Origin: Opitutales bacterium
GTDB taxonomy: Bacteria; Verrucomicrobiota; Verrucomicrobiia; Opitutales; PNEW01
Direction: 5' to 3'
Assembly (NCBI GenBank): GCA_965219535.1
Contig: CBDCNV010000002.1
Location: forward strand, 1,993,305 to 2,057,304
Length of the DNA: 64,000 nt
The notes under the pieces were generated by a model. It was not told the DNA's origin and made no database searches. It was given only the letters and a program-made list of their open reading frames with translations. The translations under genes and the position numbers were made by a program. Shown piece by piece: positions 21,320-58,761 of the stretch (its first letter is position 1; each line of letters begins with the position of its first letter).

Positions 21320-21346
21320 TGATCGGACCCCGTTTTTCGTACCAAT

Positions 21347-22312
21347 TTAAGTGAGAGAGTTACCGGGTGTTAATGGTTTTAGGATTGATGTATATGAGAG
21401 ATCTTGGCGAAGTGAGGGCGTAGCCCGAACGCGGCCAAGATCGGAAAGGAATCTGACAAACTCTTGTGGGCTTTTGAAGCCTAAACGACTGTGGGGATGT
21501 TCATGGTTATAGGTCTGACGCCATTGTTCGATTACCACTTGCGCTTCAGCCACGCTGAGCAACACTTCACGGTTCAAACACTCATCGCGTAAGCGGTTGT
21601 GAAACGACTCGATGAAACCGTTTTGCCAGGGACTGCCCGGATCGATATAGATCGCCTTTATGTTATTACCGGACAACCACTGCTGCACTTGATGAGCAAT
21701 GAACTCACTGCCGTTGTCACTACGGATATAGCTGGGAGGTCCCTCCTCTTCAATGGCCTCGCTAAGCACAGAGAGGACATCGGTTGAGGTGAGTTGACGA
21801 GCGACCCGGATATCCAGGCATTTACGCGTATATGTCTTCGCTTCGCTTGAGTGTCGTCGCTTTCAGCTCCTCGGTACATCGATTAGAGTCATCATCTTTA
21901 ATGGACCGCCGTTGTCTGTACGATCATGGACAAAGTCCCAGGACCAAACGTGATTGCGACCCTTTGCTTTAGTAGGTGACCCCGTAGAGACTCCTTGACG
22001 GTGTCTGCCCTTTTTCGGGGGCTTTACCTGCAGCCCTTCTGAACGTCGTACCGCCTGGACAAACTTCCTGCTTGTTGTCCAGCCTTCCTTTACCAGCAAG
22101 GCACGGATGCGCCGGTAACCGTAGCGGGGATGTTTCCAGGACAAGCTCACAATCCGCTCGACCAACCGCTGAGCTTTCTCACTGGCCTGTTTGGGCCGGT
22201 AACTGAACGTTGACCAACTCAGGCTGAGATAAGCACAAGCCCTCCGCAACGAGCACAACCCTTTCTCAGCCGCAGCTTTTACTACTCGTTTCTTCTGCTT
22301 TGGGCTCACCAT
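21347..22312 (-). pseudogene. IS3 orfB (DDE transposase/integrase core) with in-frame TGA at 21863-21865
   Basis: ...NHVWSWDFVHD...IRSDNGSEF...PGSPWQNGFIESFHNRLRDE... gives the DDE triad context. The TGA lies between the first and second catalytic Asp. Confidence 0.75.
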
Positions 22313-22599
22313 TTTTTTGACAGCGTTTCCTCCATTACCTGATTCTTGAGCATTTGATCTGCGAGCAGCTTCTTCAGCTCGGTATGTCAGGCCTTCTCGC
22401 TTGCGCTCGTGAATTCTTTTTCCAGCTCTTTAAATCGCTTCGCATCGGCAAGTTCTAAATTGCCATATTTTTTACGCCAGCGATAGAAAGTCTGTTCGCT
22501 CAGGTTGTTTCCACGGCAGATTTCCTGTACCGTTTTACCGGTATCGGCTTGCCGCAATATTGTTATAATCTGTTCTGTTGTGTATCTTTTTCTTTTCAT
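22306..22599 (-). pseudogene. IS3 orfA (HTH protein) with in-frame TGA at 22387-22389
   Basis: MKRKRYTTEQIITILRQADTGKTVQEICRGNNLSEQTFYRWRKKYG... is a typical IS3 OrfA. The frame continues after the TGA as HTELKKLLADQMLKNQVMEETLSKKW*. Confidence 0.75.
22312..22318 (-). promoter_or_regulatory. A7 slippery run, candidate -1 programmed frameshift site (orfA to orfB)
   Basis: AAAAAAA lies at the orfA/orfB overlap, and orfB is in the -1 frame relative to orfA. This is the canonical IS3-family arrangement. Confidence 0.6.
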
Positions 22600-22664
22600 T
22601 GAGGTTATCTGTTTATCCCGATAACCTCTCTCTGTAAATGATACGATTTTTGGGGGTCACTCCA

Positions 22665-23821
22665 CTCTTCTGATATCGCCCTTATTATTTGGAGTTTACG
22701 CTCCTATCCCGGAACAAGAACAAGGTACGCCATTAACGATCAGTTTGAAAGCCGGTGGTTTTTACGACACTAATATTTTTGGGAATTTTACGAATGAGAT
22801 AGATAGTGGAGCGATCAGTTTTGCGCCACAATTTAAGTATAATGCTTCGCTTTCCGAGCAAACATTTTTATCCGGATTGTATAATTTAGAAATTATCTCC
22901 TACGATAATCGTCCCACGGATGATCTTCTTTTTAATAATGTGCTCGGTCTTAACGTCTATCATTCGTTTGCGCCCAACATTAATTTTCAGATTTCTGAAA
23001 ACCTCTCTATTATTGATAATCCGGAATCGTTGCTTGTAGGTGTATTACAATCTAACCAGTCTTATAATCATAATCTTTTTAATGTCAGCTTAGGGGTCGA
23101 TTTATCAGAAAAACTGGGAGCTGTTTTCAAATTTAGAAATACAGACTTTGGCTATGATGATCAGAGTCTTGGATCACTTCTAGATCGCAATGAGCATCTC
23201 CTGGGCATTGAAGGAGATTTCAATTTGTCGCCCATCATGACCGCAGTCGGGGAATTTCGTTATCAAGATATAAACTATGATCAAAACGGCTTCGATAAAA
23301 ATAGTGATTCGGTTTTTTTCCTGACGGGAGTAAATTACAAACCCGATGAGAAGTTAGATGTAAGAGGAAGGGTTGGGGTAGAGGACCGCAACCGACAATC
23401 CAGCACTGATAATGCAACATTTTATGGTGAATTTACCACGTTCTACCGTTATCAGGAGGAATCGTTTATCTCGGCTGGGGTGACTTACGATATACGTGAG
23501 ACTTCAAATCCACTTAATTTTACTGACGATGAAGTTTTAAGTGTATTTTTAAACGCTCAGCATGCACTTAGCGGAGCCCTTACAGCTTCCGGATCGGTAT
23601 TATATAATGCGTCAGAATTACTTCGCAGAGATCCCACCACGGGCCCCAATACCGAGGATGATACGATTCGTGTAGGCTTTGGCTTAACTTATAAGCATTC
23701 TGATAATTTATCCATTATCATTGATTATGATTATGATAAAACGGGTTCATCCGATCCTGTGCGTGAGGAAAATAGGCACCGCGTCGGGATCAATTTCCGT
23801 TATACATTCGGAATATTTTAA
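22665..23821 (+). pseudogene. Outer-membrane beta-barrel protein gene, 5' end severed by IS3 copy 1
   Basis: The frame is open from the IS boundary (LLISPLLFGVYAPIPEQEQ...). Alternating beta-strand pattern with a C-terminal ...RYTFGIF. The ORF track only recovers it from an internal TTG at 22745. Confidence 0.8.
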
Positions 23822-23922
23822 TAAGAATATAGATATTTCCGGTCTAGAGTGATAGCCAAAGCAGGTGCGGGTCATGCTTGACCGGCATTTCAATTAGGAA
23901 GTATAATCTAAAGCTTGCGCAT

Positions 23923-26103
23923 ATGAACAATGATGACCAATCAATGCCCATTGGCCTTTCCCTCTCCGATTTGCTGAGAGTGTTGCGGGCAAGAAAAACG
24001 TTGATTGCGCTGATTCTCTTAATATGCCTGCTTACGACCATTGTTTTTACTTGGAGTCAACCGAAGTGGTACAACGCGATAGCTGGAATTAGGGTGGAGA
24101 AACCGGAAAGTGAGGTCGTTCTTTTTGGACGACAGTCTACAGGAAATTTCGACCCCTATTTTATCCGTGAACAAGTTCAGATCATCCAAAGTAAATCGGT
24201 TCTCGCTCCAGTGATAGATGGGTTTTCGCTTCAAAAGAAACTCAGTGCAAAACTTGGGGGAGCGCTTACTGAAGAAGAGACTTATTTATATTTGATCAAA
24301 AAAATGCTTAACGTTGATTCTCAACCGGGAACGCCGCTTATTGATATCGGTGTGCTCATGCAGGAAGAACCTGTTTTAGCCGCGGAGTTGGCTAATGCGA
24401 TCGCTATAGCTTATGCTCGTAACCGTATCGCTTTTGCTACCTCAGGGCAAACCGAAGCGATCGAAAAATTACAGGAGGAATTATTATTACAGGAGAGCTC
24501 AGTCTCTGAACAGCGAGATAGGGTAGAGAGTTTGCGTAAGGAGCTACAGATATCTGGTGTTGATATTGCCGCGCGTACTACCCAGTTGGATATTGAAAAC
24601 TTGCGTCAGTTAGAACGTAGCTTAATCGCTTTAAAAGTTGATGCCATTGCGAGAAAGACTCGGTTTGAAAGATTTAGTAAGGTCCCTTTGGGAGAGCGAT
24701 TCAGGCTGGTTAATTCTGAACTGATACCTGACACTAATATATTGAATCTGATGCAGGCCCATATGATTGCCGATCAGAACTTCACACAATTGGAAGGTAG
24801 ACTGGGTGAAGCGCACCCTGATCTGGTGGCAGCGGCAAATAATCTACAGAAAATTAGTGAGCAGTTGGCTAACCTGCTCCAGGGCTATGAAGAGGCATTA
24901 GAGATCTCCTACATTGAAGCGCAAGCCCGCGTATCTGAACTGGAAAAACAACTGGAGAGCGCTCGAATTGATCAGATTTATTCCGCGGAAAATAAAATGC
25001 GCCCGTTTGAAGAAGCGGTGACTAAGCTGCAAGATGAAGAGAATCTCTACAAAACACTTAAAATTACATTAAGACAGCGTGAAATCGACTTTCAGGTACC
25101 TAAGCGCACAATTGAAATTCTTAATGAAGCGGTTCCTGCCCGCCGTCCATCAAAGCCAAGTTGGGTAATCAATCTTGGGCTCGCGATAATCATGGGTAGT
25201 ATTATTGGACTGGGGAGTGCATTTCTTTTCGATTTTTTTGATACTAGTTTTCGCTCCATCGATGATTTGGAACGAATATTGCAACTCCCGGTAATGGGAG
25301 TAATTAAGAAGGACCAGCCATTAGTGACTGCTGATAATTTTAATACTTTTGAAGCTGAACCTTATCGCGTTATTCAAACCAATTTGAATTTATCAGGGAA
25401 TGATAAAAAAAGTAATGTGATTATTGTTCAATCTGCAGGCCCGGGTGAAGGTAAATCATCTACCCTTTATAATCTCGCTTCTGTAATGGCTTTTAGCGGA
25501 TTGAAAATTCTTGTTATCGACTCCGATCTTCACCGGCCCGTTCAACATAAATTAATGGAAGCAAAACGAACGCCAGGACTTATTGATATCCTGATGGGAG
25601 ATAAGAAACCCAAGAGTATTATTCAGCATACAAAAAATCCTAATCTGGATGTTATGCCCGCCGGTCATAGCGCTCATTTCAATCTCAGTGTAATTCACGT
25701 TAATCTACTGATAAAGATATTGGACGAATTAGGTTCTAAATACGATAAGATCTTTCTCGACTCTCCCCCCATAATTGGAATTAGCGACGCATCGATACTT
25801 GCCAGCGTAAGTGATGGAGTAATCATTGTCATCCAACATAAACGCACAACTACATCCATGTCTTTGCGTGCGCGACAAATTTTGCAGAATGTTGAAGGAA
25901 ATATTTACGGCGTTATTTTAAATCAGGTCCCAGAAGTTGGTGATGAAGATTACAATTATTATACGAGTAATTATTCTTATTACAGCTCTGCAGGTAGACA
26001 AAAAGAAAGTAGCTCACCATTTAATACAGACAATGTAGTTGAAAATGAAATAGAAACGTTCGAAATTGAGGAATCAGATAAAAAGAATTTCCCCTCGGTC
26101 TGA
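23923..26103 (+). CDS. Polysaccharide co-polymerase / BY-type tyrosine autokinase (Wzc/GumC/EpsB-like)
   Basis: N-terminal Wzz-type TM, long coiled-coil periplasmic region and a second TM. Kinase domain with Walker A (SAGPGEGKSST), A' (VIDSDLHRP) and B (IFLDSPP), plus a C-terminal Tyr cluster (DYNYYTSNYSYYSS). ATG at 23923 preferred over the track start at 23878. Confidence 0.85.
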   Translation: MNNDDQSMPIGLSLSDLLRVLRARKTLIALILLICLLTTIVFTWSQPKWYNAIAGIRVEKPESEVVLFGRQSTGNFDPYFIREQVQIIQSKSVLAPVIDGFSLQKKLSAKLGGALTEEETYLYLIKKMLNVDSQPGTPLIDIGVLMQEEPVLAAELANAIAIAYARNRIAFATSGQTEAIEKLQEELLLQESSVSEQRDRVESLRKELQISGVDIAARTTQLDIENLRQLERSLIALKVDAIARKTRFERFSKVPLGERFRLVNSELIPDTNILNLMQAHMIADQNFTQLEGRLGEAHPDLVAAANNLQKISEQLANLLQGYEEALEISYIEAQARVSELEKQLESARIDQIYSAENKMRPFEEAVTKLQDEENLYKTLKITLRQREIDFQVPKRTIEILNEAVPARRPSKPSWVINLGLAIIMGSIIGLGSAFLFDFFDTSFRSIDDLERILQLPVMGVIKKDQPLVTADNFNTFEAEPYRVIQTNLNLSGNDKKSNVIIVQSAGPGEGKSSTLYNLASVMAFSGLKILVIDSDLHRPVQHKLMEAKRTPGLIDILMGDKKPKSIIQHTKNPNLDVMPAGHSAHFNLSVIHVNLLIKILDELGSKYDKIFLDSPPIIGISDASILASVSDGVIIVIQHKRTTTSMSLRARQILQNVEGNIYGVILNQVPEVGDEDYNYYTSNYSYYSSAGRQKESSSPFNTDNVVENEIETFEIEESDKKNFPSV

Positions 26104-26200
26104 ATGGGAAAAATCTATCTAGCGTTCGTTTTCACCCAGACTTCGTGCATTCACTATTGACATTGACGTAAATCCGGAAAAGTTATCATCAAAATTTATT

Positions 26201-26276
<76 letters not shown>

Positions 26277-26289
26277 GTAAAGACTAAAG

Positions 26290-26976
26290 GTGAAAGCTAG
26301 CGAACTTTTTCAATTGCCGGGAACCCTGCCATTCGGGGATTATTTTAAGGGAGATGATGCCCCTTGGGAGTGGGTTAGTGGAATAAAAACTGCCTTAGCC
26401 GAATTTGATTTCAGTATTCATTCCAAAACGTCTAATTTACCCTCGGGTGTATCAATAAGCGAAGATGTATTTATTGATCCTTCGGTTAAACTTCCGCCTT
26501 ATTGTGTTATAGAAGGACCAGCTTACATTAGTGCGAATACAGAAGTTCGCGCTGGCGCCTATATTCGAGGCAATGTCATTGTGGGGGAGGGGTGTGTTTT
26601 AGGAAATTCATGTGAATATAAGAATTGTTTACTCATGGATCGAGTTAAGACGGCACACTTTAATTATATCGGTGATTCAATTTTAGGCTCAGATGTTCAT
26701 TTTGGGGCTGGAGCAATTTGTGCAAACTTACGTCTCTTTCATGATCCAGTTCCTGTTGAATTACCAGATGGCAGTCGTGTATCAAGCCAGATGCTTAAAC
26801 TGGGCGCCTTGATGGGGGAACAGTCTGAAGTGCTTTGCAATAGTGTTTTACAACCAGGGGCAATTTTGGGCAAACGCTCGGTGGTTCTACCAGGCACGGT
26901 ATTCAGTGGATATCTTTCTGAAAACACTATTGTGCGCGGGTCGCAGCAATTAAAAACATCTTTACGACGAGATTGA
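26290..26976 (+). CDS. Left-handed beta-helix (hexapeptide-repeat) transferase family protein
   Basis: 228 aa with a GTG start. Repeated [LIV]-G-x-x-x-x hexapeptide pattern (IRGNVIVGEGCVLGNSC..., IGDSILGSDVHFGAGA...), resembling GlmU C-terminal or sugar-nucleotide transferases. Confidence 0.6.
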   Translation: MKASELFQLPGTLPFGDYFKGDDAPWEWVSGIKTALAEFDFSIHSKTSNLPSGVSISEDVFIDPSVKLPPYCVIEGPAYISANTEVRAGAYIRGNVIVGEGCVLGNSCEYKNCLLMDRVKTAHFNYIGDSILGSDVHFGAGAICANLRLFHDPVPVELPDGSRVSSQMLKLGALMGEQSEVLCNSVLQPGAILGKRSVVLPGTVFSGYLSENTIVRGSQQLKTSLRRD

Positions 26977-26999
26977 TTATATTTCTGTTTTAGGCACAA

Positions 27000-28745
27000 T
27001 CAAATCTCTTCATAGAGGGATTCTCCACGATGCAATCGAATTGCAGTACGGGTCATTTGAGACTCAGCTCTGCGCGTCGGGCAGTGTGCAGTTAAATGTC
27101 GGGTAACGGCTACATAAATATGTTCTTCCTGTGGTTGTCCTGCCCATAATTGGGCTTGTTGCACACCCGCTTCCAGGCACTGTAATTTATGAAAATCTAG
27201 ATCCTCACGCAGAGTGGCTTTCGCGAGAGTATCAATCAGTCGATCTACCGGATGTTGGAGGCGGATATAGCGGCTTACCGGTGCCGTAACGGTATCCCAG
27301 GACTGTCGTCTGTCCAAATTTTCAAAAATGGATTCAAGTAACTCGTCAGGTTCAGTACTTAAAGATTCCAAATCAATGTGTTCATCAGGAAATTTCGCTT
27401 CTGGTATGTTCAGAAATCGATCTACGTATACGGACATTGCACCATGAAGAATTCCACGGATCGTATTGTGATTAACAGAGCGTTTCAATGTCTGATAAAT
27501 CGCGTTCGAATAGGTGAAAGTGTGAAGAGGCCCAAACCAGTCGTTAATATCATTCGATTCAGGAAAGTGCGCCATGCGCAATGCAGAGGTATAGGCAATG
27601 TGTTTGGCGATCTCCGTCGGATCCACTCCGCGAATCAGAATATCTTTAAGAGTATTAAGAATTAAATTAGGATCATTACCGAGCAGTATTTCATTTAAAC
27701 CGTTAGGCACTTCATTGATATTCTTAGATTCGAGATTATATTCAGACAGTTCTTCTTCTCTTTTACGAATCTCGGGGATAAGATCGATAGGATTTCTCCA
27801 GGAGCTACTTTCTTCCTCTCCGCGCGCTGAGCTTATGCCTGAGACCAAGGTTGGCAGAATCTTCTCCAAGTGATCCCAACCGATAGTGTTTAAGATTTCG
27901 AAAGATTTGTTCGCGAAATCAAGGGTGTGTCCTGTTGCGGAAAAGATACGGTCAGTTATCGTGCCGAAAACGAGATCGTTAATAATAGGTGAATTGGGGG
28001 ATTTAATTGCCGCGGTAAGTAAAGTGCGCTCAGCACCATCACGATGGCGGACTAAAACCCAGTGTTTGAACCATCGCTCAAGCTGTTCTGCCTCATTCTG
28101 ATTACCCTCCAAAGGATAGCGATCTCTTCTTGCCGGCATCCCTACGCAGTTGGAGGCGAGGCGTCTGGACGCGAGCGAGAGGGCATATATCTTAGTGTCC
28201 TTAGATAAGTAGGGCCAAAGATTTGCAACAGCTGATAGCAAAGTCATCCCGTCTTGCCAGTTATCGTGATTGGAAGCCCCGAACAAAGCGATCTCGCGGA
28301 TTATATCACGAAAATCTACTCCAGTCTCTAGAAGACCGATGATGCTTTTAGCCTGAACGAGCGCAATATTTTGCTCTAGCCCGCGTTTCAATCGATTTAA
28401 GTAATATTTCTTTGTTGGTTGTTCATTAGCTAATTTGGCAATATAAATTTCATCATCATCGACCTTCACTTGATATGTCGGTACATCATCTGCGAATAAA
28501 TCAAATGCGCAACCGCTGCTTAAATCGAATCGCGCATGATGCCAATGACAAGTCAGGATTCCGTCTTTAACTGTTCCTTGGTGGAGGGGAAATCCGAGAT
28601 GAGGGCAACGATTATCAACCGCTAATACTTTTCCTCCATTCCAAAAAATTGCAATCGGTCTGTCTTCACCCGAGATTACAATAACCTCCTTTTTTCGTAA
28701 ATCATCCAGCGCTGCCACGTGGATGAATTCTGGATCATTGATCAT
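27000..28745 (-). CDS. Rieske [2Fe-2S] domain protein fused to a ~450-aa domain of unknown function
   Basis: N-terminal CPHLGFPLHQG...CHWHHARF matches the CxH...CxxH Rieske motif. I cannot assign the remaining ~450 aa to any family. Confidence 0.7.
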   Translation of the reverse strand: MINDPEFIHVAALDDLRKKEVIVISGEDRPIAIFWNGGKVLAVDNRCPHLGFPLHQGTVKDGILTCHWHHARFDLSSGCAFDLFADDVPTYQVKVDDDEIYIAKLANEQPTKKYYLNRLKRGLEQNIALVQAKSIIGLLETGVDFRDIIREIALFGASNHDNWQDGMTLLSAVANLWPYLSKDTKIYALSLASRRLASNCVGMPARRDRYPLEGNQNEAEQLERWFKHWVLVRHRDGAERTLLTAAIKSPNSPIINDLVFGTITDRIFSATGHTLDFANKSFEILNTIGWDHLEKILPTLVSGISSARGEEESSSWRNPIDLIPEIRKREEELSEYNLESKNINEVPNGLNEILLGNDPNLILNTLKDILIRGVDPTEIAKHIAYTSALRMAHFPESNDINDWFGPLHTFTYSNAIYQTLKRSVNHNTIRGILHGAMSVYVDRFLNIPEAKFPDEHIDLESLSTEPDELLESIFENLDRRQSWDTVTAPVSRYIRLQHPVDRLIDTLAKATLREDLDFHKLQCLEAGVQQAQLWAGQPQEEHIYVAVTRHLTAHCPTRRAESQMTRTAIRLHRGESLYEEI

Positions 28746-28800
28746 GATAATCTGTTTTTAATATTCTAGTGTAGACGAATATATTTATTTCACAATGCAT

Positions 28801-49830: not shown

Positions 49831-49878
49831 AATGGTGTGAAATAATAATAACGATGATAGTATGATTTCTGAGAAATG

Positions 49879-50292: not shown

Positions 50293-50728
50293 TTAAATAA
50301 TTAAGGATGATATAATTTCGATCGAGAGCGCGACAGATCAATCGATAGCATCTCGCAAGACCGGCTATTATGTTCGTTAAAGAACTATCATTTATTGTCG
50401 TAAAGGCTAAAACTGCTTGCTTAATAAATAAATCAAAGTAAGACTAATCTTTGATTAAGTGTGACTTATGCGAGTTGAAATACGAAATTTGTGTATAATT
50501 ATAATTCTATCACTCGATGAATAGTTACTTGATTAATTTGTTTATCTTTCGCTCTGCTTCGAGCACGTTACTTTTAAAGGTAAGAATATAGATGCTAAAG
50601 TAATTTGTGGAATAGACGATATACTTCAATCTCAATTTTTGCTATCATTGTTTGATTTTTTTTTATTACACGGTCAAAGTTTCAGGCCGTTTTTCTATTA
50701 TTAGTTCTTTAATTATCGATAGGATCCC

Positions 50729-53700
50729 ATGCCTAAATATACTCAAAACGCGCAGAAATTTCTGGTCGATGACGTTGTAGCTGAAGCCAGAAAGAAGGTG
50801 AATAAAAAAAACCTGAAAAAGGTAAAAGCGTACATAAGCCAGTATTACCGGTCCGTATCTGAGATTGATCTGCGAGATAAAGCGACCTCCGATTTGAGTG
50901 GAGCCGCGCTTGCACATTTAAAATTTGCAGAAAATCGGAAACCCAATCTTCCAAATGTCCGTATTTATAATCCTGAACTGAAAAAGGATGGTTGGGAATC
51001 GACGCATACGATTGTCGAAATGGTTAATGATGACATGCCATTTCTTGTCGATTCCCTGAGTATGGTTCTGAATAAATATTCGATTTCTATTCATTTAACG
51101 ATCCATCCTATTTTTGAAGTTCGCCGAGACGGTAAAGGGAATCTTAAAGAGGTAAAGGCTGCGAGTGAGAATACTGATGGCGCGCATTTAGAATCTTTTC
51201 AACACATTGAAATAGATCGAGAAACGAATCCAAAGCGAATCGCGCAATTGGAAAATGAAATTAAATCATCAATGGCCGACGTCAGGGCTTCGGTTAGGGA
51301 CTGGCGTGAGATGATAGATCGCTCAAGCTCATTATGTCAGGATTTAGCGAGCAAACCACCCCCTCTCGAGCTTACCGAGGTCTCCGAAAGCAAAACCTTT
51401 CTCGAGTGGATGGGGGATGATAATTTTACTTTTCTTGGCTATAAGGAATATCGGCTGAGAAGCTATGGGAAAAAGGTTGTATTTAATCCAGTCAAAGGAT
51501 CGGGGCTTGGTATTCTTCGCGAGGATCATAATAAGTTTTCAGATAGTGAAATTAGCTTGCCAGAAAACCTGCCAAATCGAGTGCATTACAAAGAACTGCT
51601 TATCATAACTAAAGCTAACTCATTCTCTACTGTTCATCGAAGAGTCTTTCTGGATTACATTGGAGTTAAGATTTTTGATAAAAAAGGTAAGTTAGTTGGA
51701 GAAAAAAGATTTATCGGCCTCTTTACTTCGGTTGCTTACAACCGAAGCGCTCTCGAAATTCCTTTTATTCGTCACAAGGTAAAGCAGGTTAGGGAGCGCT
51801 CTCAACTCTATCCCTCAAGTCATGCGGCAAAAGCGCTTCTGCACATCCTGGAAACGTTTCCCCGCGATGATCTATTTCAGGGATCCCTGGATGAGTTATT
51901 CGATATTTCTACCGGGATACTTCATTTACAGGAACGCCAAAGGGTTAAGTTATTTATTCGTAGTGACCCTTTTAACCGTTTTTTCTCATGCCTCGTTTAC
52001 ATTCCCCGCGATCGCTATAACACCCAGATTCGCGAGAGCGTTCAAGCGATTCTAATGCATGAACTTAGTGGGAGCTCTGTAGAACATACGATTCAACTAT
52101 CGGAATCAATCCTCGCTCGTGTCCATATCGTCGTTCGTACCGAACAGAATGAAAAAATAAAATTTGATACTGCCAAGATTGAAGAAAAAATAATTTCAAC
52201 TGTCCGTTCATGGCAGGATGTTCTAAGCGAATCATTAATTAATAAATTTGGAGAAGAGAAAGGTCTCAGTTTATTTCATAAATATAGCGATAGTTTTTCC
52301 GCCGCTTATCAAGAAGATGTGTCGGCACTGGAAGCGGCGTCAGATATTATACATCTTGAATATTTAGGAGAAGTTAAGGACAACCTGAGGATCTGTCTTT
52401 ATCATCCCACAAGTGATTCAGAATCAAATCTTGGTTTAAAATTATATCGTCGAGAAGGCCCTATCCCTCTTTATGATGCGCTTCCAATACTGCGGAACAT
52501 GGGATTGCGGGTTATCAGTGAACGGCCCTATCGCGTAAAGTTGAATGAAAAAACCAATTTTTGGATTCAAGATTTCGTATTGATCCATCGACTTTCCCAG
52601 GCACTCGATGCCGAAGCAGTCAACGATCATTTCGAGGATGCGTTTGCCAAAATATGGCGACGCGAAATGGATAACGATGGCTTTAACCGTTTGATTATTA
52701 GTGCACGGCTTAGCTCACGCCAAACGATATTAATTCGCGCATTCTGTAAATATTTACTGCAGATTGGAGTCCCTTTTAGTCAGACCTACATGGAGAAGGT
52801 ACTCACTGAAAACGCTTCTCTAACCAGCCTTCTTGTGGACTTATTTGAATTGCGGTTCGATCCTGCACTAGAGAGCAAAAAACGAGATCGCAGGGTACGT
52901 TTAAGTATACAAAAAATTGAGGCTGGGCTAAATGCCGTAGAAAGCCTTGATGAAGATAGAATATTACGCAGTTTTTTTGAAATTATTAGTGCCTCTCTCC
53001 GAACTAACTATTTTCAAAAAGGTAAAGATCATGATTTCAAATCTTATATTTCAGTAAAATTTGATCCGAAAAAAATACTTGAATTACCACGACCCAAACC
53101 GCTATTCGAGATATTCGTTTACTCGCGCCGTTTTGAAGGTGTTCACCTGAGAGGGGGAAAAATAGCGCGTGGAGGACTGCGTTGGTCAGACCGACGCGAA
53201 GATTTTCGCACCGAAATCTTGGGGTTAATGAAAGCCCAAATGGTTAAGAACACCCTTATTGTTCCAATCGGTGCCAAAGGTGGTTTTGTTGTCAAACGTC
53301 CTCCAATCAGTGGAGGACGCGAAGAATTAATGGGTGAAGTCGTAGATTGTTACCGAAATTTTATTCGTGGGCTACTGGATATCACCGACAACCTTAAAGG
53401 TGCAAAAGTTATAAAACCGAAAGAAGTCGTGCGGTATGATGAGGATGATCCTTACCTCGTTGTTGCGGCGGATAAGGGAACAGCCACATTCTCCGATATC
53501 GCGAATAGTGTTGCCCATGAATACAATTTTTGGCTCGGTGATGCCTTTGCTTCCGGTGGTTCTGTAGGCTATGATCATAAAGTCATGGGAATCACTGCTC
53601 GTGGTGCCTGGGAGTCAGTCAAGCGGTTATTCCGGGAACTGGATGTCGATATTCAGACAACAGATTTCAGCGTTATTGGCATTGGTGATATGGGAGGAGA

Positions 53701-55576
53701 CGTTTTTGGGAATGGCATGCTCCTTTCGCGTCATATTCAATTAAAAGCGGTTTTCAACCATCTTCATATTTTCCTCGATCCTAATCCCAATTCAGCGAAG
53801 AGCTATCTTGAGCGAGAAAGGCTCTTTAATTTTCCGCGATCCACTTGGGAAGATTATAATAAAAAATTAATTTCCAGGGGAGGGGGTGTTTTTTCCCGCC
53901 AGGCTAAAGAAATCAAGTTGAGTGAGGAAGTTAAAAAAATGTTGGATATTGAAGCCAGTGTATTAACCCCGCTTGAATTGATCAGGGCGATTATGCGAAT
54001 GCGGGTGGATTTGTTTTGGAATGGTGGCATCGGCACTTATGTTAAAGCCAGCGGGGAGACGCATTTTGAAGTAGGGGACAGGAGTAACGACAATGTTCGT
54101 GTAAATGCGAATAAATTGAGGTGTCGAGTCGTTGGTGAAGGCGGCAACCTGGGCTTTACTCAATTGTCCCGTATTGAGTACGCGTTGAATGGGGGCCTGA
54201 TCAATACTGACTTCGTTGACAATTCCGGAGGGGTAGACTGTTCAGACCGTGAAGTTAATATCAAAATTCTCCTCAACGTCGTGAAGCAGAATGAGGATTT
54301 ACCGGATAAAGAGCGTAATCAGCTTTTAACTAAGATGACCGATGAAGTCGCCACACTCGTTTTGCGGGACAATTATCTTCAGAGTCAAGCCATCAGCATG
54401 ATGGAAGAACACGCTGTAGACAGAATGAATGAAAATGCCTACCTCATTCATGTTTTGGAAAAAAAAGGTGAACTTGATCGAGCCCTGGAGTTTCTACCCA
54501 CCGATGATGAAATTATTGAGCGTAGAAAATCTCGAAAAGGTTTAACCCGTCCTGAACTGGCGGTCCTCATCGCTTATGGTAAGATCACACTCTATAATGA
54601 ATTGGTTGATTCGGATGTCCCTGAAGACACTTATCTCGCCGAGGAAATAGAACGCTATTTTCCGGGGCCTCTTTTAAAGAGGTTTCCGCAATACATGGCT
54701 TTACACAATTTGCGTCGTGAAATAATAGCGATGCGCGTTACAAATAGCCTCGTAAATAGAATGGGCCCCACTTTTGCCCATCGAATGTGGGAGGAAAGTG
54801 GTGCCGATGCAGCCAGTGTAGCGCGGGCTTATACAGTAGCACGTGAAGTCTTTAATATGCGTTCTCTTTGGCGGTCGATCGAGTCTTTAGATAATAAAAT
54901 TCCAGCTAATGTTCAGTACTCAATGATGTTTCAGACCAGTCGTCTCTTGCGGCGCGCCACACGCTGGCTTTTAGAACAACCTGCGCGGTCTGCAAATATT
55001 GCGTCTGCGGTTTCAAATTACCGTTCGGAAATCTCTACCCTGATTAAAATTCTGCCCGAATTACTCGTAGAGGACGATTTGCGAAGTTTCAAAGAAATGG
55101 TGCGGAATTATCTTGAAGCGGGAGTGCCAAGAGAGACGGCAAAAAGTATTTCACTCTTAAATTCTATTTACCCTGCGCTGGATATTACGGAAATTGCACT
55201 TAATTCTAATGCCAAAGTTACCTATGTAGCTTCAGTGTATTTCAATATTGGATCGACGATCGCGCTTAATTGGCTGCGGAATCAGATTGAATTATTGGAA
55301 GTTGACGGTCACTGGCCAGCTGTTGCTCGAGGAACACTTCGCGAAGACCTATACGCGATGCACCGATCTCTTACCGCTCAAGTGATTGCTCTGGATGGAA
55401 AATCACGAGCCGAAACTTCCGTGAACCGCTGGTTGCAACACCACCAGGATAATATTGTTCATGTCGAACAAACGCTCAACGACATGAAATCTGCTGGAGA
55501 AATTGATTTTGCTACATTGTCGGTTGCAGTACAGGAAATCCGTAAGCTTAATCAATTTACGATGAACTCCCGTTAA
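50729..55576 (+). CDS. gdhB: NAD-specific glutamate dehydrogenase, large (~180 kDa) class
   Basis: 1615 aa. Catalytic-core blocks of the large bacterial NAD-GDH family (GGLRWSDR, VPIGAKGGFV, ADKGTATFSD, GIGDMGGDVFGNGML, EGGNLGFTQ). Confidence 0.9.
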   Translation: MPKYTQNAQKFLVDDVVAEARKKVNKKNLKKVKAYISQYYRSVSEIDLRDKATSDLSGAALAHLKFAENRKPNLPNVRIYNPELKKDGWESTHTIVEMVNDDMPFLVDSLSMVLNKYSISIHLTIHPIFEVRRDGKGNLKEVKAASENTDGAHLESFQHIEIDRETNPKRIAQLENEIKSSMADVRASVRDWREMIDRSSSLCQDLASKPPPLELTEVSESKTFLEWMGDDNFTFLGYKEYRLRSYGKKVVFNPVKGSGLGILREDHNKFSDSEISLPENLPNRVHYKELLIITKANSFSTVHRRVFLDYIGVKIFDKKGKLVGEKRFIGLFTSVAYNRSALEIPFIRHKVKQVRERSQLYPSSHAAKALLHILETFPRDDLFQGSLDELFDISTGILHLQERQRVKLFIRSDPFNRFFSCLVYIPRDRYNTQIRESVQAILMHELSGSSVEHTIQLSESILARVHIVVRTEQNEKIKFDTAKIEEKIISTVRSWQDVLSESLINKFGEEKGLSLFHKYSDSFSAAYQEDVSALEAASDIIHLEYLGEVKDNLRICLYHPTSDSESNLGLKLYRREGPIPLYDALPILRNMGLRVISERPYRVKLNEKTNFWIQDFVLIHRLSQALDAEAVNDHFEDAFAKIWRREMDNDGFNRLIISARLSSRQTILIRAFCKYLLQIGVPFSQTYMEKVLTENASLTSLLVDLFELRFDPALESKKRDRRVRLSIQKIEAGLNAVESLDEDRILRSFFEIISASLRTNYFQKGKDHDFKSYISVKFDPKKILELPRPKPLFEIFVYSRRFEGVHLRGGKIARGGLRWSDRREDFRTEILGLMKAQMVKNTLIVPIGAKGGFVVKRPPISGGREELMGEVVDCYRNFIRGLLDITDNLKGAKVIKPKEVVRYDEDDPYLVVAADKGTATFSDIANSVAHEYNFWLGDAFASGGSVGYDHKVMGITARGAWESVKRLFRELDVDIQTTDFSVIGIGDMGGDVFGNGMLLSRHIQLKAVFNHLHIFLDPNPNSAKSYLERERLFNFPRSTWEDYNKKLISRGGGVFSRQAKEIKLSEEVKKMLDIEASVLTPLELIRAIMRMRVDLFWNGGIGTYVKASGETHFEVGDRSNDNVRVNANKLRCRVVGEGGNLGFTQLSRIEYALNGGLINTDFVDNSGGVDCSDREVNIKILLNVVKQNEDLPDKERNQLLTKMTDEVATLVLRDNYLQSQAISMMEEHAVDRMNENAYLIHVLEKKGELDRALEFLPTDDEIIERRKSRKGLTRPELAVLIAYGKITLYNELVDSDVPEDTYLAEEIERYFPGPLLKRFPQYMALHNLRREIIAMRVTNSLVNRMGPTFAHRMWEESGADAASVARAYTVAREVFNMRSLWRSIESLDNKIPANVQYSMMFQTSRLLRRATRWLLEQPARSANIASAVSNYRSEISTLIKILPELLVEDDLRSFKEMVRNYLEAGVPRETAKSISLLNSIYPALDITEIALNSNAKVTYVASVYFNIGSTIALNWLRNQIELLEVDGHWPAVARGTLREDLYAMHRSLTAQVIALDGKSRAETSVNRWLQHHQDNIVHVEQTLNDMKSAGEIDFATLSVAVQEIRKLNQFTMNSR

Positions 55577-55603
55577 GCGATTGAGCAAACGGATATAATT
55601 TTA

Positions 55604-56761
55604 TTAATCCGCGTATTGCTTCAAGCGCTCGCAAGCAATCTTAAGATTGTCTAAACTTGTCGCGTAGGATAGGCGTAGATAATCTTCTCCCTCCTTGCCG
55701 AATGAATTGCCCGCGAGGACGGCAATACCGGCATTTTCCAGGATATCATCGGCAAGTTGGCTCGCACTTTTTCCCGTCTCTTTAATATTGGGAAAGGCGT
55801 AAAAAGCGCCACTTGGTTTAAGGCAGTGAAAACCGTTAATTTCATTTAATGCATCGACTAAATAATCCCTGCGGGATTTAAATTCAGTCACCATTAATTC
55901 GACGCAGTCCTGTGAACCTTGAAGTGCGGCCAACGCTCCATATTGATTAAAAGTACAAGCACAGGAAGCGATATTAACATTATAGAGCTCAAAGGCCTCT
56001 GCTAAGAAGGAAGGAACTATTCCATATCCCAGTCGCCACCCGGTCATTGAATAGCTTTTGGAAAAACCGTCGAGAATTACCGTTCGTTCTTTCATTCCAG
56101 GTAGAGAGGCAATACTGACGAAACTACCTTCATAGAGAAAATCTTTATATATTTCGTCAGAGAGGACGAAAAAATCGTTGCGTTGAGCTTCTTCGGCAAT
56201 TACTTCGAGATCATCTCGACTAATTGTGCCTCCGGTAGGGTTATGCGGAGAATTAATTATGACGAGGCGAGTGCGCTCAGATACACGGGATCTAAAATCT
56301 TTCTCATCAAACGAAAAAGCTTTTTCTTCTCTTAGGGGTAGGGGGACGGGAGTGGCACCACTGTGCGCGATGAGTGACGCATACATGGGAAATCCAGGAT
56401 CTGGATAAATAACTTCATCACCTTTCCCCGCAAGACTTTGAATAGTATAGAAAATAATTGGTTTTCCACCCGGTGATATAATGACATTATTTATGTCAAA
56501 CGGTATCCCTCTACGTGCGCCAGTCTCTGAGGCAATAGCTTCTCTTAACTCAGGGAGCCCTGGTGCCGGTCCGTATCCCGTTTTTCCTTCACGCATAGCT
56601 GCGACTGCGGCATCACATACATGTTCAGGCGTAGGAAAGTCGGGCTGGCCGATTTCCAGATGTATTATATCCTTCCCCTGCCTCTCCAATTGTTGAGCTT
56701 GTGCCAGTACTTTGAAGGCTGTTTCTGTCTGCAGACCTTGAGTGCACTCTTTAATTTTCAT
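55604..56761 (-). CDS. Class I/II pyridoxal-phosphate aminotransferase (aspartate/aromatic type)
   Basis: 385 aa. NSPHNPTG and PLP-lysine context SKSYSMTGWRLGY. Confidence 0.9.
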   Translation of the reverse strand: MKIKECTQGLQTETAFKVLAQAQQLERQGKDIIHLEIGQPDFPTPEHVCDAAVAAMREGKTGYGPAPGLPELREAIASETGARRGIPFDINNVIISPGGKPIIFYTIQSLAGKGDEVIYPDPGFPMYASLIAHSGATPVPLPLREEKAFSFDEKDFRSRVSERTRLVIINSPHNPTGGTISRDDLEVIAEEAQRNDFFVLSDEIYKDFLYEGSFVSIASLPGMKERTVILDGFSKSYSMTGWRLGYGIVPSFLAEAFELYNVNIASCACTFNQYGALAALQGSQDCVELMVTEFKSRRDYLVDALNEINGFHCLKPSGAFYAFPNIKETGKSASQLADDILENAGIAVLAGNSFGKEGEDYLRLSYATSLDNLKIACERLKQYAD

Positions 56762-56991
56762 GGATGCAGAATAGCTTCATGCCGGGTCAGGGCAAGCAGC
56801 TTGATTTCAGAATCAAATAACGGGAATGAACCCATCATGGCGTACAAAACTTCGGCGTGAGCTCCCCTTGGCACCATTTCTGGGCCAAAGAGGTCCAACA
56901 CCCACGCCGAAGCCTCAGTCGTACCCCTCTTCGTGAGGGTTAACTTGCCGGCCGTAGCCCCAAGTAGGCGGGACTACAGCTCAACAAGGTT

Positions 56992-57021
56992 GCGATTGGG
57001 AAGCTCGTAAAACCCAATCGC
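56992..57021 (-). terminator. Perfect 9-bp hairpin downstream of the truncated surface-protein remnant
   Basis: gcgattggg-N12-cccaatcgc, 16 nt past the remnant stop codon. There is no U-run, so terminator function is uncertain. Confidence 0.3.
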
Positions 57022-57036
57022 AAAATTTCACCTTTA

Positions 57037-57344
57037 CTAAATCGTTTCCTCATAAATTGTGACCGTAATTTCATCACCGTCTTCATTGATGAATGTTTCA
57101 TCGATGGTCTGCGTCACCTGTTCCGTTCCGTCCGACTTAACATTGTTCTGAGAGACCAAGGTATCAAATCCAGGTGTCGTCGATCCGCTCTCAGCTACTA
57201 CGATGTCGGCTTCGTTCGTCTGAATGAGATCGCCTCCAGCGATCCGCAATCCCGGATTTGACGCGGCAACCGTAAAAGACCCTTCTCCAAATAGAATGTT
57301 TGGCACCGCATCACCTGAAGCGTCGATGTCTCCGATTAAGACAC
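57037..57344 (-). pseudogene. 3' remnant of a surface/adhesin-like protein gene, truncated by IS3 copy 2
   Basis: The minus-strand frame is open right up to the IS boundary (…VLIGDIDASGDAVPNILFGEGSFTVAASNPGLRIAGGD...) with no upstream start. G/D/T/S-rich beta-type sequence. The rest of the gene is absent from the other side of the IS. Confidence 0.6.
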
Positions 57345-57409
57345 TGGAGTGACCCCCAAAAATCGTATCATTTACAGAGAGAGGTTATCGGGATAAACAG
57401 ATAACCTCA

Positions 57410-57703
57410 ATGAAAAGAAAAAGATACACAACAGAACAGATTATAACAATATTGCGGCAAGCCGATACCGGTAAAACGGTACAGGAAATCTGCCGTGGAA
57501 ACAACCTGAGCGAACAGACTTTCTATCGCTGGCGTAAAAAATATGGCAATTTAGAACTTGCCGATGCGAAGCGATTTAAAGAGCTGGAAAAAGAATTCAC
57601 GAGCGCAAGCGAGAAGGCCTGACATACCGAGCTGAAGAAGCTGCTCGCAGATCAAATGCTCAAGAATCAGGTAATGGAGGAAACGCTGTCAAAAAAATGG
57701 TGA
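57410..57703 (+). pseudogene. IS3 orfA with in-frame TGA at 57620-57622
   Basis: Identical to copy 1 orfA. The frame reads ...KELEKEFTSASEKA*HTELKKLLADQMLKNQVMEETLSKKW*. Confidence 0.75.
57691..57697 (+). promoter_or_regulatory. A7 slippery run, candidate -1 programmed frameshift site
   Basis: tcA AAA AAA tgg tga in the orfA frame. The -1 frame reads aaa aaa atg gtg agc... (orfB). Confidence 0.6.
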
Positions 57704-58662
57704 GCCCAAAGCAGAAGAAACGAGTAGTAAAAGCTGCGGCTGAGAAAGGGTTGTGCTCGTTGCGGAGGGCTTGTGCTTATCTCAGCCTGAGTTGGTCAAC
57801 GTTCAGTTACCGGCCCAAACAGGCCAGTGAGAAAGCTCAGCGGTTGGTCGAGCGGATTGTGAGCTTGTCCTGGAAACATCCCCGCTACGGTTACCGGCGC
57901 ATCCGTGCCTTGCTGGTAAAGGAAGGCTGGACAACAAGCAGGAAGTTTGTCCAGGCGGTACGACGTTCAGAAGGGCTGCAGGTAAAGCCCCCGAAAAAGG
58001 GCAGACACCGTCAAGGAGTCTCTACGGGGTCACCTACTAAAGCAAAGGGTCGCAATCACGTTTGGTCCTGGGACTTTGTCCATGATCGTACAGACAACGG
58101 CGGTCCATTAAAGATGATGACTCTAATCGATGTACCGAGGAGCTGAAAGCGACGACACTCAAGCGAAGCGAAGACATATACGCGTAAATGCCTGGATATC
58201 CGGGTCGCTCGTCAACTCACCTCAACCGATGTCCTCTCTGTGCTTAGCGAGGCCATTGAAGAGGAGGGACCTCCCAGCTATATCCGTAGTGACAACGGCA
58301 GTGAGTTCATTGCTCATCAAGTGCAGCAGTGGTTGTCCGGTAATAACATAAAGGCGATCTATATCGATCCGGGCAGTCCCTGGCAAAACGGTTTCATCGA
58401 GTCGTTTCACAACCGCTTACGCGATGAGTGTTTGAACCGTGAAGTGTTGCTCAGCGTGGCTGAAGCGCAAGTGGTAATCGAACAATGGCGTCAGACCTAT
58501 AACCATGAACATCCCCACAGTCGTTTAGGCTTCAAAAGCCCACAAGAGTTTGTCAGATTCCTTTCCGATCTTGGCCGCGTTCGGGCTACGCCCTCACTTC
58601 GCCAAGATCTCTCATATACATCAATCCTAAAACCATTAACACCCGGTAACTCTCTCACTTAA
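57697..58662 (+). pseudogene. IS3 orfB (DDE transposase) with in-frame TGA at 58144-58146
   Basis: The 149-aa and 140-aa track ORFs are in the same frame (both start positions are 1 mod 3). They are separated only by one TGA: ...MTLIDVPRS*KRRHSSEAKTYTRKCLDIRVARQLTSTDVLSVLSEAIEEEG... Confidence 0.75.
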
Positions 58663-58761
58663 ATTGGTACGAAAAACGGGGTCCGATCAATGATGTTGTT
58701 ACTTTTGGTAATTAATAAACCTAAACAACCATAATTATTTATATACTAGCTATTTATGAAA

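What the first reader, a model, noticed from the sequence alone, without database searches (positions are those of the whole stretch)
21320..58689. Two apparently identical IS3 copies in inverted orientation bracket 34.7 kb holding dnaA, candidate oriC, gyrBA and ligA
Copy 1 (21320-22664, minus) and copy 2 (57345-58689, plus) have the same length and termini, and every ORF translation is identical. Inverted 1.3-kb repeats are substrates for homologous recombination, which would flip the 34,680-bp segment at 22665-57344. That segment carries dnaA, its AT-rich upstream region, gyrB/gyrA, lptCAB-hprK, ligA and gdhB. The candidate origin (~45.6 kb) lies about 23 kb from one copy and 12 kb from the other. 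An inversion would therefore shift the origin and reverse the strand of highly expressed genes relative to replication. The population may be heterogeneous for this orientation.
Basis: partly seen in the sequence, partly recalled or inferred. Interest (0 to 1): 0.6.

Follow-up and report, generated by a model that had tools for sequence, protein, structure and literature searches.

The report
Two identical IS3 copies, no inversion
Two identical copies of a very abundant jumping gene flank the dnaA/gyrase region of an uncultured Opitutales bacterium, but every available assembly and relative shows the segment in its ancestral orientation, so this is an ordinary case; the more unusual thing is that short inserts found widely in other bacteria interrupt the jumping gene's own transposase genes.

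Summary
Two 1,345-bp IS3-family copies (21320-22664 minus, 57345-58689 plus) are 100% identical, inverted and 34,680 bp apart. The segment between them holds gyrBA, lptAB-hprK, dnaA, ligA and NAD-GDH.

- Copy 1 is a clean insertion with an intact 4-bp target duplication (CTCT). Three IS-free relatives have the same gene order across an empty site with a single CTCT.
- Copy 2 has no duplication because it sits on an ~8.9-kb deletion joint next to tRNA-Pro. A close relative keeps both flanks in the same orientation.
- All same-species long-read contigs on record show the window's junctions. The segment is therefore in its ancestral orientation, with no trace of inversion.
- The pair is not special. 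The IS occupies at least 16 sites, and 9 of them lack duplications, so IS-mediated rearrangement is common in this lineage.
- The origin claim is weak: GC3 skew has the same sign on both sides of dnaA.
- Both copies carry in-frame TGA stops in orfA and orfB, introduced by 29-nt and 44-nt inserts.

Those inserts belong to a widespread family (core CCGAGGAGCGAAGCGACGACA) that also occurs in tRNA T-loops, attC-like loops and ORFs. I found no description of it.

The parts
21320..22664 (-). IS3-family element, copy 1 (1,345 bp, ends TGGAGTGACCCC...GGGGTCCGATCA)
   Evidence: It is 100% identical to copy 2. Pfam finds HTH_Tnp_1, HTH_21, rve and rve_3. NCBIfam NF033516 scores 219 bits against a cutoff of 160.
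21316..21319 (.). Target-site duplication CTCT, left copy, of IS copy 1
   Evidence: The flanks read CTCT|IS|CTCT. Relatives L097 and L098 have a single CTCT at the empty site.
22665..22668 (.). Target-site duplication CTCT, right copy, of IS copy 1
57345..58689 (+). IS3-family element, copy 2, with no target duplication (flanks ..GACAC | ATGATG..)
   Evidence: It sits at an ~8.9-kb deletion joint relative to L220.
57410..57703 (+). orfA of copy 2 (HTH_Tnp_1), interrupted by an in-frame TGA at 57620-57622
   Evidence: Read-through OrfA matches positions 1-80 of the NF033516 model.
57691..57697 (+). A7 slippery run at the orfA/orfB overlap, the presumed -1 frameshift site
   Evidence: The sequence reads TCAAAAAAATGG. 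The orfB frame is open from 57580.
57697..58662 (+). orfB of copy 2 (HTH_21 plus the rve DDE core), a single frame interrupted only by an in-frame TGA at 58144-58146
   Evidence: One search shows the continuous frame, with WSWDF, SDNGSEF and IESF intact. One search compares it with an intact IS3 transposase.
57596..57624 (+). Mini-insert A (29 nt replacing AA) in orfA of copy 2. The mirror position in copy 1 is 22385-22413.
   Evidence: It is absent from IS copies L005, L007 and L227. It carries the TGA.
58133..58176 (+). Mini-insert B (44 nt replacing the AG of GATGAGTA) in orfB of copy 2. The mirror position in copy 1 is 21833-21876.
   Evidence: The window reads D[VPRS*KRRHSSEAKT]YTR where an intact relative reads DQYTR. 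The motif search hits only these places in the window.
57037..57344 (-). C-terminal remnant (residues 414-515) of a 515-aa gene, cut off at the IS edge
   Evidence: The gene is intact in relatives L016 and L220. tblastn gives 95% identity and stops at 57345.
58762..58838 (-). tRNA-Pro(GGG). Homology to relative L220 resumes at its 3' end (58759).
22665..57344 (.). The 34,680-bp bracketed segment, in ancestral orientation
   Evidence: Synteny with L096, L097 and L098 at the left end, and with L016 and L220 at the right end.
45376..45902 (.).
   Evidence: GC is 26-31%. It has two TTATTCACA boxes. It is ~97% identical to the relative, against 95.3% for the whole block. There is no skew switch.

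Best explanation
The window comes from an uncultured Opitutales (Verrucomicrobiota) chromosome in which one IS3-family element has recently multiplied to many near-identical copies. Two of these copies lie in inverted orientation on either side of an ancestral 34.7-kb block of housekeeping genes.

Copy 1 arrived by ordinary transposition into the spacer between a 603-aa gene and a porin-like gene, and duplicated CTCT. This step is shown.

Copy 2 marks a joint where ~8.9 kb has been lost. The lost DNA is the 5' 1.2 kb of a 515-aa gene plus about eight genes, up to the 3' side of tRNA-Pro. The loss is shown. The route is inferred: most likely recombination between two directly oriented IS copies, or another IS-associated adjacent deletion. 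Either would leave a hybrid copy without a duplication.

The segment between the copies has not been inverted. Both ends match the gene order and orientation of IS-free relatives, and copy 1's duplication is intact.

The two copies remain a legitimate substrate for RecA-mediated inversion. Any such events are at best rare variants not seen in any assembly.

Both copies are probably non-autonomous, because 29-nt and 44-nt inserts put in-frame TGA stops into orfA and orfB. Their spread would then need a transposase supplied in trans. This is inferred.
For: - Identity and geometry.
- IS3 membership.
- High copy number: identical ORFs on 22 or more contigs and 16 distinct sites tabulated.
- Copy 1: CTCT duplication and an empty site in relatives.
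- Junction 1 synteny without an IS in relatives at 95%, 85% and 77% identity.
- Junction 2: colinearity with OY829953.1 ends exactly at the IS edge inside a 515-aa gene. L220 carries 8,926 bp between the two window blocks, with both flanks in the same orientation.
- Same junctions in the independent long-read assemblies ERZ25072670 and ERZ25067264.
- GC3 skew is uniformly positive across both IS boundaries, as expected if the segment has long been in its present orientation.
- Broken ORFs. TGA is a normal stop in this genome, used by 17 of 47 genes.
Against: - Assemblies report only the majority arrangement, so a minor inverted subpopulation cannot be excluded without reads.
- Only a few same-species assemblies exist, and they may share strains.
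- The IS copies at both sites differ from the window by a 31-nt insert in the other assemblies. This implies either recent gene conversion at these very copies, meaning they do recombine, or an assembly effect.
- An intact master copy of the IS was not found. The look-ups were biased towards copies that carry insert B.
Confidence: 0.85

Rival explanations
1. The segment flips back and forth by homologous recombination between the two IS copies, and the population is a mixture of both orientations.
For: - The repeats are 1.3 kb, 100% identical and inverted.
- IS-linked rearrangement is frequent in this lineage: 9 of 16 sites lack duplications.
- Copies at both sites differ by the same 31-nt indel between near-identical strains, which is compatible with inter-copy gene conversion.
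- All four A+/-C+/- combinations exist among copies.
Against: - No contig on record carries the alternative junctions.
- Copy 1 has an intact duplication and there is no swapped-flank pattern.
- Both junctions are ancestral.
- Skew is continuous across the IS boundaries.
- If the origin lies outside the segment, as the skew suggests, inversion would reverse 34.7 kb relative to replication and would probably be selected against.
Confidence: 0.1
2. The structure is a composite transposon. The two IS copies mobilise the 34.7-kb block as a unit.
For: There are inverted IS copies at both ends, with both IRR ends facing outwards.
Against: - The sequences just outside the two copies do not match (CTCT versus ATGA).
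- The same genes occupy the same place without any IS in relatives.
- The cargo is essential single-copy genes.
- Both transposase genes carry stops.
Confidence: 0.01
3. This is an assembly artefact. The perfect identity, or the junctions themselves, come from repeat collapse, consensus polishing or a misjoin at IS copies in a low-coverage long-read metagenome assembly.
For: - Related contigs have only 5-10x coverage.
- The window's two copies both lack insert C, whereas the same sites in two other assemblies both carry it. Polishing a repeat with reads from other copies could produce this.
Against: - Junctions are reproduced in independent assemblies and agree with the relatives' synteny.
- Those assemblies resolve C+ and C- copies on the same contig, for example L008/L009 versus L010.
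- Copy 1's duplication fits the empty site.
Confidence: 0.04

Closest known systems
IS3-family insertion sequences (orfA/orfB with a -1 frameshift, DDE transposase, TG...CA ends, 3-4 bp duplications)
   Same: - Domain set and NCBIfam NF033516 above its cutoff.
- An A7 slippery run at the orfA/orfB overlap.
- TG...CA termini.
- 4-bp duplications at 6 of 16 sites.

   Different: - Both copies in the window have in-frame TGA stops in orfA and orfB, caused by short foreign inserts.
- More than half of the copies lack duplications.
- No intact copy of this IS species was recovered.
Chromosomal inversions between inverted IS or rrn copies, including origin-spanning 'symmetric' inversions. From my own knowledge: E. 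coli W3110 rrnD-rrnE, IS481 in Bordetella pertussis, and X-shaped alignments between related genomes.
   Same: The substrate geometry is the same: long, identical, inverted repeats flanking a chromosomal block that contains dnaA.
   Different: The inversion product is not observed here. The duplications, the synteny and the skew all show the unrearranged state. An origin inside the block is not supported by skew.
IS-mediated deletion between directly repeated IS copies, leaving a hybrid copy without a target duplication
   Same: Copy 2 lacks a duplication, truncates a gene exactly at its edge, and replaces 8.9 kb that is present in a relative whose flanks are colinear.
   Different: The two parental copies are not available, so the route to the deletion is inferred rather than shown.
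For the inserts inside the IS: tagged stem-loop repeats (GTAG/CGTC REPs with CCA tails) and Rickettsia palindromic elements that land inside genes (PMC3733652)
   Same: - They are short (29-69 nt) and have many copies.
- They have no duplication and no transposase of their own.
- The 3' end is often (C)CA.
- They can sit in-frame inside ORFs.
- Opitutus terrae is reported as REP-rich, with intragenic REPs.
   Different: - The conserved part is a purine-rich 21-mer, not a palindrome.
- Inserts A-C have no significant fold.
- The same core occurs across very diverse metagenomes in tRNA T-loops and attC-like loops.
- REP families are usually lineage-specific and extragenic.

Membership tests
IS3 family insertion sequence | A DDE (rve) transposase with an N-terminal HTH that matches the family model | tested here: met
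   Pfam finds HTH_Tnp_1, HTH_21, rve and rve_3. NF033516 scores 219.4 bits (cutoff 160) for read-through OrfB. OrfA and OrfB together cover model positions 1-369.
IS3 family insertion sequence | Two overlapping frames joined by a -1 frameshift on an A-rich slippery motif | tested here: met
   There is an A7 run at 57691-57697. The orfB frame opens at 57580 and orfA ends at 57703. This is sequence-level evidence only; frameshifting itself was not tested.
IS3 family insertion sequence | Imperfect terminal inverted repeats ending 5'-TG...CA-3' | tested here: met
   The ends read TGGAGTGACCCC... and ...GGGGTCCGATCA, with 26 of 45 terminal positions matching.
IS3 family insertion sequence | A 3-4 bp target-site duplication | tested here: met
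   Copy 1 has CTCT on both sides, and the empty site in relatives has one CTCT. Across all sites, 6 of 16 have perfect 4-bp duplications. Copy 2 has none, which the deletion explains.
IS3 family insertion sequence | Uninterrupted transposase reading frames (an autonomous element) | tested here: not met
   There are in-frame TGA codons at 57620-57622 (orfA) and 58144-58146 (orfB), in both copies. TGA is an ordinary stop in the host.
IS-bounded invertible segment (an inversion that has occurred or is occurring) | Long inverted homologous repeats | tested here: met
   1,345 bp, 100% identical, inverted.
IS-bounded invertible segment (an inversion that has occurred or is occurring) | Both orientations observed, or the orientation differs from relatives | tested here: not met
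   All same-species contigs and all relatives share the window's orientation at both junctions.
IS-bounded invertible segment (an inversion that has occurred or is occurring) | Exchanged half-duplications between the two copies | tested here: not met
   Copy 1 has a matched CTCT pair. Copy 2's flanks match neither each other nor copy 1's.
IS-bounded invertible segment (an inversion that has occurred or is occurring) | A minor inverted subpopulation in reads | not testable with these tools
   No read-level data are available.
Composite transposon | A duplication flanking the whole unit, and the unit absent from the site in relatives | tested here: not met
   The outer flanks are CTCT versus ATGA. 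The internal genes are present at the same locus without an IS in relatives.
Chromosomal replication origin (oriC) at 45.4-45.9 kb | An AT-rich unwinding region next to dnaA | tested here: met
   GC is 26-31% over 45500-45900, immediately upstream of dnaA. The spacer is ~97% conserved against the relative.
Chromosomal replication origin (oriC) at 45.4-45.9 kb | A cluster of DnaA boxes | tested here: inconclusive
   There are two TTATTCACA boxes (one mismatch each) in 527 bp. The window-wide count is 19 against 16.3 expected by chance.
Chromosomal replication origin (oriC) at 45.4-45.9 kb | A switch of strand compositional skew | tested here: not met
   GC3 skew on the + strand is +0.059, +0.095, +0.049 and +0.204 in the left flank, left of 45.6 kb, right of 45.6 kb and the right flank respectively. 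It is positive for genes on both strands.
REP/RPE-type tagged palindromic repeats (for the inserts inside the IS) | An 8-9 bp stem-loop with an unpaired GTAG or CGTC tag | tested here: not met
   Inserts A, B and C fold no better than shuffles (z +1.1 to +1.8). The core is a purine-rich 21-mer. Only the longer metagenome versions add a hairpin.
REP/RPE-type tagged palindromic repeats (for the inserts inside the IS) | A short unpaired CCA-like 3' tail, no duplication, and occasional intragenic in-frame copies | tested here: met
   The inserts end in CA or CCA and replace 1-2 nt without a duplication. In-frame 'VPRSEATTRPGAER..' occurs in a NapA-like protein and a PolX-like protein. The comparison is with PMC3733652.

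The most novel reading that the evidence does not exclude
The short inserts that break both IS copies (29 nt in orfA, 44 nt in orfB, plus 33-43-nt relatives in other copies) may belong to an undescribed, very widespread class of miniature insertions. The class is defined by a purine-rich core, CCGAGGAGCGAAGCGACGACA, which contains the d(GCGAAGC) mini-hairpin sequence.

In diverse metagenomes the core lies, in the orientation of the host gene, inside tRNA T-loops. Removing it in silico restores perfect tRNA-Arg and tRNA-Ser genes. It also lies in the loops of attC-like palindromes, and in-frame inside ordinary ORFs.

In this genome the inserts have repeatedly hit IS3 transposase genes at conserved codons. 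One insert is 100% identical at the homologous codon of two IS3 species that are only ~70% identical. That points to site-specific insertion or short-patch conversion by an unknown mechanism, and possibly to removal or tolerance at the RNA level.
Probability: 0.2. Interest if true: 0.7.

Novelty: new member of a known kind. Interest (0 to 1): 0.22.

Why it matters
For the finding itself, little changes. It documents a new, highly expanded IS3-family element in an uncultured marine-type Opitutales genome. It also shows how target duplications, synteny and codon-position skew can settle an "invertible segment" hypothesis without reads. The practical lesson is that in IS-rich genomes any single inverted pair is unremarkable. 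The missing duplications at 9 of 16 sites indicate that this IS has already driven many rearrangements elsewhere in the genome.

The side observation could matter more. If the 21-mer inserts are a real mobile class that colonises tRNA loops, attC loops and coding frames across phyla, they raise two questions. How is such a small element moved with positional precision? And how do interrupted tRNAs and transposases remain usable?

Tried and rejected
- **Swapped duplications.** I looked for exchanged half-duplications between copies 1 and 2, and for reciprocal flank pairs among the nine IS sites without a duplication. Only chance-level 3-nt matches turned up.
- **Missing gene half.** I looked for the missing 5' part of the 515-aa gene next to other IS copies. 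Only ~60% paralogues were found. The question was later settled as a deletion through L220.
- **L164, L165 and L171.** I suspected a larger parent element downstream of the motif here. It turned out to be a simple deletion variant.
- **TGA recoding.** Global TGA recoding or selenocysteine as an explanation for the in-frame stops is rejected, because TGA ends 17 of 47 genes.
- **Rfam.** Scans of the IS and of motif-bearing loci found no family.
- **Literature.** Searches for the 18-mer on both strands, and for its peptide signatures, found nothing. Translational-bypass literature was checked as an analogy and does not fit inserts in tRNAs.
- **Viral contigs.** Only 3 hits, so there is no phage link.
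- **JGI hits and IS3.** None of the JGI motif hits lies in an IS3 transposase.
- **Elhai 2008.** This paper on small dispersed repeats could not be read.


Full report
**Observation.** The two arms are real. An alignment and a repeat scan of the whole window give a single long repeat, 21319-22664 and 57345-58690. It is 1,346 nt long, 100% complementary, with 34,680 nt in between. The termini read TGGAGTGACCCC...GGGGTCCGATCA.

The presumed lptC has no family hit.

**What the element is.** The ORF pieces carry HTH_Tnp_1, HTH_21, rve and rve_3. A read-through OrfB scores 219 bits against the NCBIfam IS3 model (cutoff 160), and OrfA plus OrfB span the whole model. An A7 run lies at the orfA/orfB overlap.

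Neither gene is intact. orfA has an in-frame TGA at 57620-57622, and orfB is one continuous frame broken only by a TGA at 58144-58146. TGA is an ordinary stop in this genome, ending 17 of 47 genes. Both stops sit inside short segments that are insertions relative to other copies and to an intact IS3 transposase from the same metagenome. The window reads D[VPRS*KRRHSSEAKT]YTR where that transposase reads DQYTR.

**Organism and copy number.** The exact 149-aa ORF of the IS is on at least 22 contigs of long-read metagenome assemblies. The closest genome is a complete 'Opitutales bacterium' MAG chromosome, OY829953.1. It is 95% identical and colinear with window 40729-57342.

Over all the same-species DNA I fetched, the IS occupies 16 distinct sites. 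There are at least four sites on one 479-kb contig and at least four on a 401-kb contig. That extrapolates to tens of copies per genome, which is an inference. Copies with the same insert state are 99.9-100% identical. The identity of the window's two copies is therefore what a recent burst predicts, not a special property of this pair.

**Has the segment inverted? Junction 1.** Copy 1 is flanked by CTCT on both sides (21316-21319 and 22665-22668). Homologues of the 603-aa flank protein led to three relatives at 95%, 85% and 77% identity. In all of them the order is his genes, sigma-54 regulator, 603-aa gene, then (in L097 and L098) porin-like gene and Wzz, then hexapeptide transferase, Rieske protein, HisN, gyrA and gyrB. 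This is the same order and orientation as the window, without any IS; L096 has lost the porin-like/Wzz stretch but is otherwise the same. The empty site in L097 and L098 contains one CTCT. Copy 1 is therefore a simple insertion. Its intact duplication means it has not been a partner in any fixed recombination since it arrived.

**Junction 2.** Copy 2 has no duplication (..GACAC|IS|ATGATG..). Colinearity with OY829953.1 stops exactly at its left edge, inside a 515-aa gene of which the window keeps only residues 414-515.

A 3.3-Mb contig of another close relative (L220) resolves this. It matches window 48585-57342 and 58759-61704 in the same relative orientation, with 8,926 bp in between that the window lacks. 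The missing DNA is the rest of the 515-aa gene, a two-component system, a cyclase and small ORFs. Homology resumes at the 3' end of tRNA-Pro(GGG). A third relative has a different island there, so this is a tRNA-linked variable spot.

Copy 2 thus marks an IS-associated deletion, not an inversion, and the right end of the segment is also in ancestral orientation.

**Other assemblies.** Look-ups of the four flank proteins returned only contigs with the window's junction pairs. They come from two independent long-read assemblies plus further contigs folded in as 'similar', and short-read contigs end at the IS. The aroE look-up failed only because of a start-codon difference. No contig shows the alternative junctions. 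This cannot exclude a minor subpopulation.

**Origin and predicted consequences.** The dnaA upstream spacer is AT-rich (26-31% GC). It is more conserved than the surrounding genes: ~97% identical to the relative, against 95.3% for the whole block. So it is functional DNA. But it holds only two one-mismatch DnaA boxes, and such boxes are not enriched in the window (19 found, 16.3 expected).

Bulk GC skew is positive over almost the whole window. The one negative stretch, at 28-35 kb, disappears at third codon positions. GC3 skew on the + strand is +0.059 in the left flank, +0.095 in the segment left of 45.6 kb, +0.049 right of it and +0.204 in the right flank. It is positive for genes on either strand. 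There is no polarity switch, so composition argues that the + strand is the leading strand throughout and that the origin lies outside the window.

The geometry also matters. An inversion that includes the origin keeps every gene co-oriented with its fork, and would only move the origin by about 11 kb. An inversion that excludes the origin flips all genes in the segment. The continuity of GC3 skew across both IS boundaries is a further sign that the segment has long been in its present orientation.

**Is the general idea wrong?** No. Of the 16 IS sites, six have perfect 4-bp duplications and one has a 3-bp duplication, but nine have none (the chance of a 4-bp match is 1/256). For a family this young, that points to frequent recombination or deletion at IS copies, and copy 2 is one example.

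Insert states A and C also occur in all four combinations among copies. At both sites in the window, the copies lack the 31-nt insert C that the same sites carry in the other two assemblies, although the flanks differ by only ~3 substitutions in 38 kb. Those assemblies do resolve C+ and C- copies on one contig. Inter-copy gene conversion is therefore a reasonable reading, but an assembly effect is not excluded.

Recombination among copies is thus plausible in this lineage. For this pair, however, no crossover product is seen.

**Side observation: the inserts.** IS copies differ by short inserts at five positions (A to E), each 29-44 nt long. Each replaces one or two bases, starts T(A/T)C and ends CA. 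They have no duplication and no inverted ends, and they share ..CCGAGGAGC..GAAGCGACGACA..GCGAAGC...

Insert C is 100% identical at the homologous SDNGS|E|F codon of a second IS3 species whose flanks are only ~70% identical. That is not vertical descent. In the window the motif occurs only in the two IS copies.

Among the 86 motif occurrences in the 80 loci kept:
- 27 are in T-loop-like contexts.
- 22 are in the loop of an attC-like palindrome.
- 14 are in a hairpin form that reads VPRSEATTRPG in frame.
- 23 fall in other contexts.

Deleting 69 nt from L132 or 55 nt from L167 restores a canonical tRNA-Arg(CCG) and a tRNA-Ser(GCT) respectively. In L139 and L135 the element is in-frame inside a NapA-like oxidoreductase and a PolX-like protein, in a gapped loop relative to solved structures.

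Related repeats also occur in intergenic DNA of this genome. Rfam has nothing. The sequence and its peptide signatures are absent from the paper library. Only three viral contigs carry it.

The nearest described things are tagged REP and RPE repeats with CCA tails that sometimes sit inside genes, reported as abundant in Opitutus terrae (PMC3733652). However, inserts A-C have no significant fold, and the conserved part is not a palindrome. I leave this as an unexplained lead. From memory, similar GC-rich repeats give spurious peptides in many annotations; that recollection is not a test.

**Verdict.** The specific hypothesis of an inverted or flipping origin-bearing segment is not borne out: the arrangement is ancestral at both ends, copy 1 is untouched, and copy 2 records a deletion. 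The finding is ordinary, a new member of a known kind. The short inserts inside the IS are the part worth a separate look.

Noticed in passing
window 57596-57624 and 58133-58176 (copy 2); mirror positions 22385-22413 and 21833-21876 (copy 1); other IS copies in L001-L011: Short inserts (29-44 nt, core CCGAGGAGC..GAAGCGACGACA..GCGAAGC) interrupt the IS3 transposase genes at five different positions. Each replaces 1-2 nt, has no duplication, and lies in sense orientation. One insert is identical at the homologous codon of a second IS3 species only ~70% identical (L007:430-1930).
   Followed up: partly
It occurs in tRNA T-loops, where in-silico removal restores tRNA-Arg(CCG) and tRNA-Ser(GCT). 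It also occurs once in a D-loop (L126), in loops of attC-like palindromes, in-frame in ORFs as 'VPRSEATTRPGAER..', and as 36-nt tandem units. It is not in Rfam and was not found in the paper library.
   Followed up: partly
window 58304 / 21705 versus L009:10608-10640 and L011:12312-12344: At both chromosomal sites, the IS copies in two other assemblies of the same species carry a 31-nt insert (C) that both window copies lack. The flanks differ by only ~3 substitutions in 38 kb. This means either gene conversion between IS copies or an assembly effect.
   Followed up: partly
window 57037-57344 and 58690-58838; L220 (reverse complement) 8763-17688: There is an ~8.9-kb deletion relative to a close relative at IS copy 2. 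It removes most of a 515-aa gene, a two-component system and a HAMP-cyclase gene, and ends next to tRNA-Pro(GGG). A third relative (L219) has a different island and a related IS3 at the same tRNA.
   Followed up: yes
16 IS sites in window, L001-L010 and L227-L233: 9 of the 16 sites of this young IS family have no target duplication, and 6 have perfect 4-bp duplications. This suggests extensive IS-mediated rearrangement of the genome. All four A+/-C+/- insert combinations exist.
   Followed up: partly
window 12874-13608 (ORF 12883-13557, minus): A ~735-bp segment encoding an IS1595-family DDE transposase lies between hisH and citrate synthase. It is absent from relatives L096-L098, so it is another recent insertion.
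   Followed up: partly
window 27000-42010: gyrA, gyrB, recO-like, ybeY, phoH and neighbouring genes (13 kb) lie on the strand that GC3 skew marks as lagging. dnaA is not next to dnaN. This orientation is shared with relatives, so it is ancestral.
   Followed up: no
window 45376-45902 versus L016:4648-5173: The non-coding dnaA upstream spacer is more conserved (~97%) than the surrounding 16.6-kb block (95.3%). It contains repeated TTATCAG/TTATCAC motifs besides two TTATTCACA boxes.
   Followed up: partly
L008 6598, 11853, 14303, 14483; L003 2347: A related intergenic repeat, ..TTGTCATTGCGAGG..GGC|TACCGAGCGCAGCGACATCTTCCAYTCCAGG.., lies near paralogous Ig_7-domain genes. The insert family is therefore not confined to IS elements in this genome.
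   Followed up: no
L096 versus window 21243-25574: The 95%-identical relative lacks the porin-like and Wzz/tyrosine-kinase genes that follow IS copy 1 in the window. This is a separate deletion or indel in a polysaccharide-export locus.
   Followed up: no
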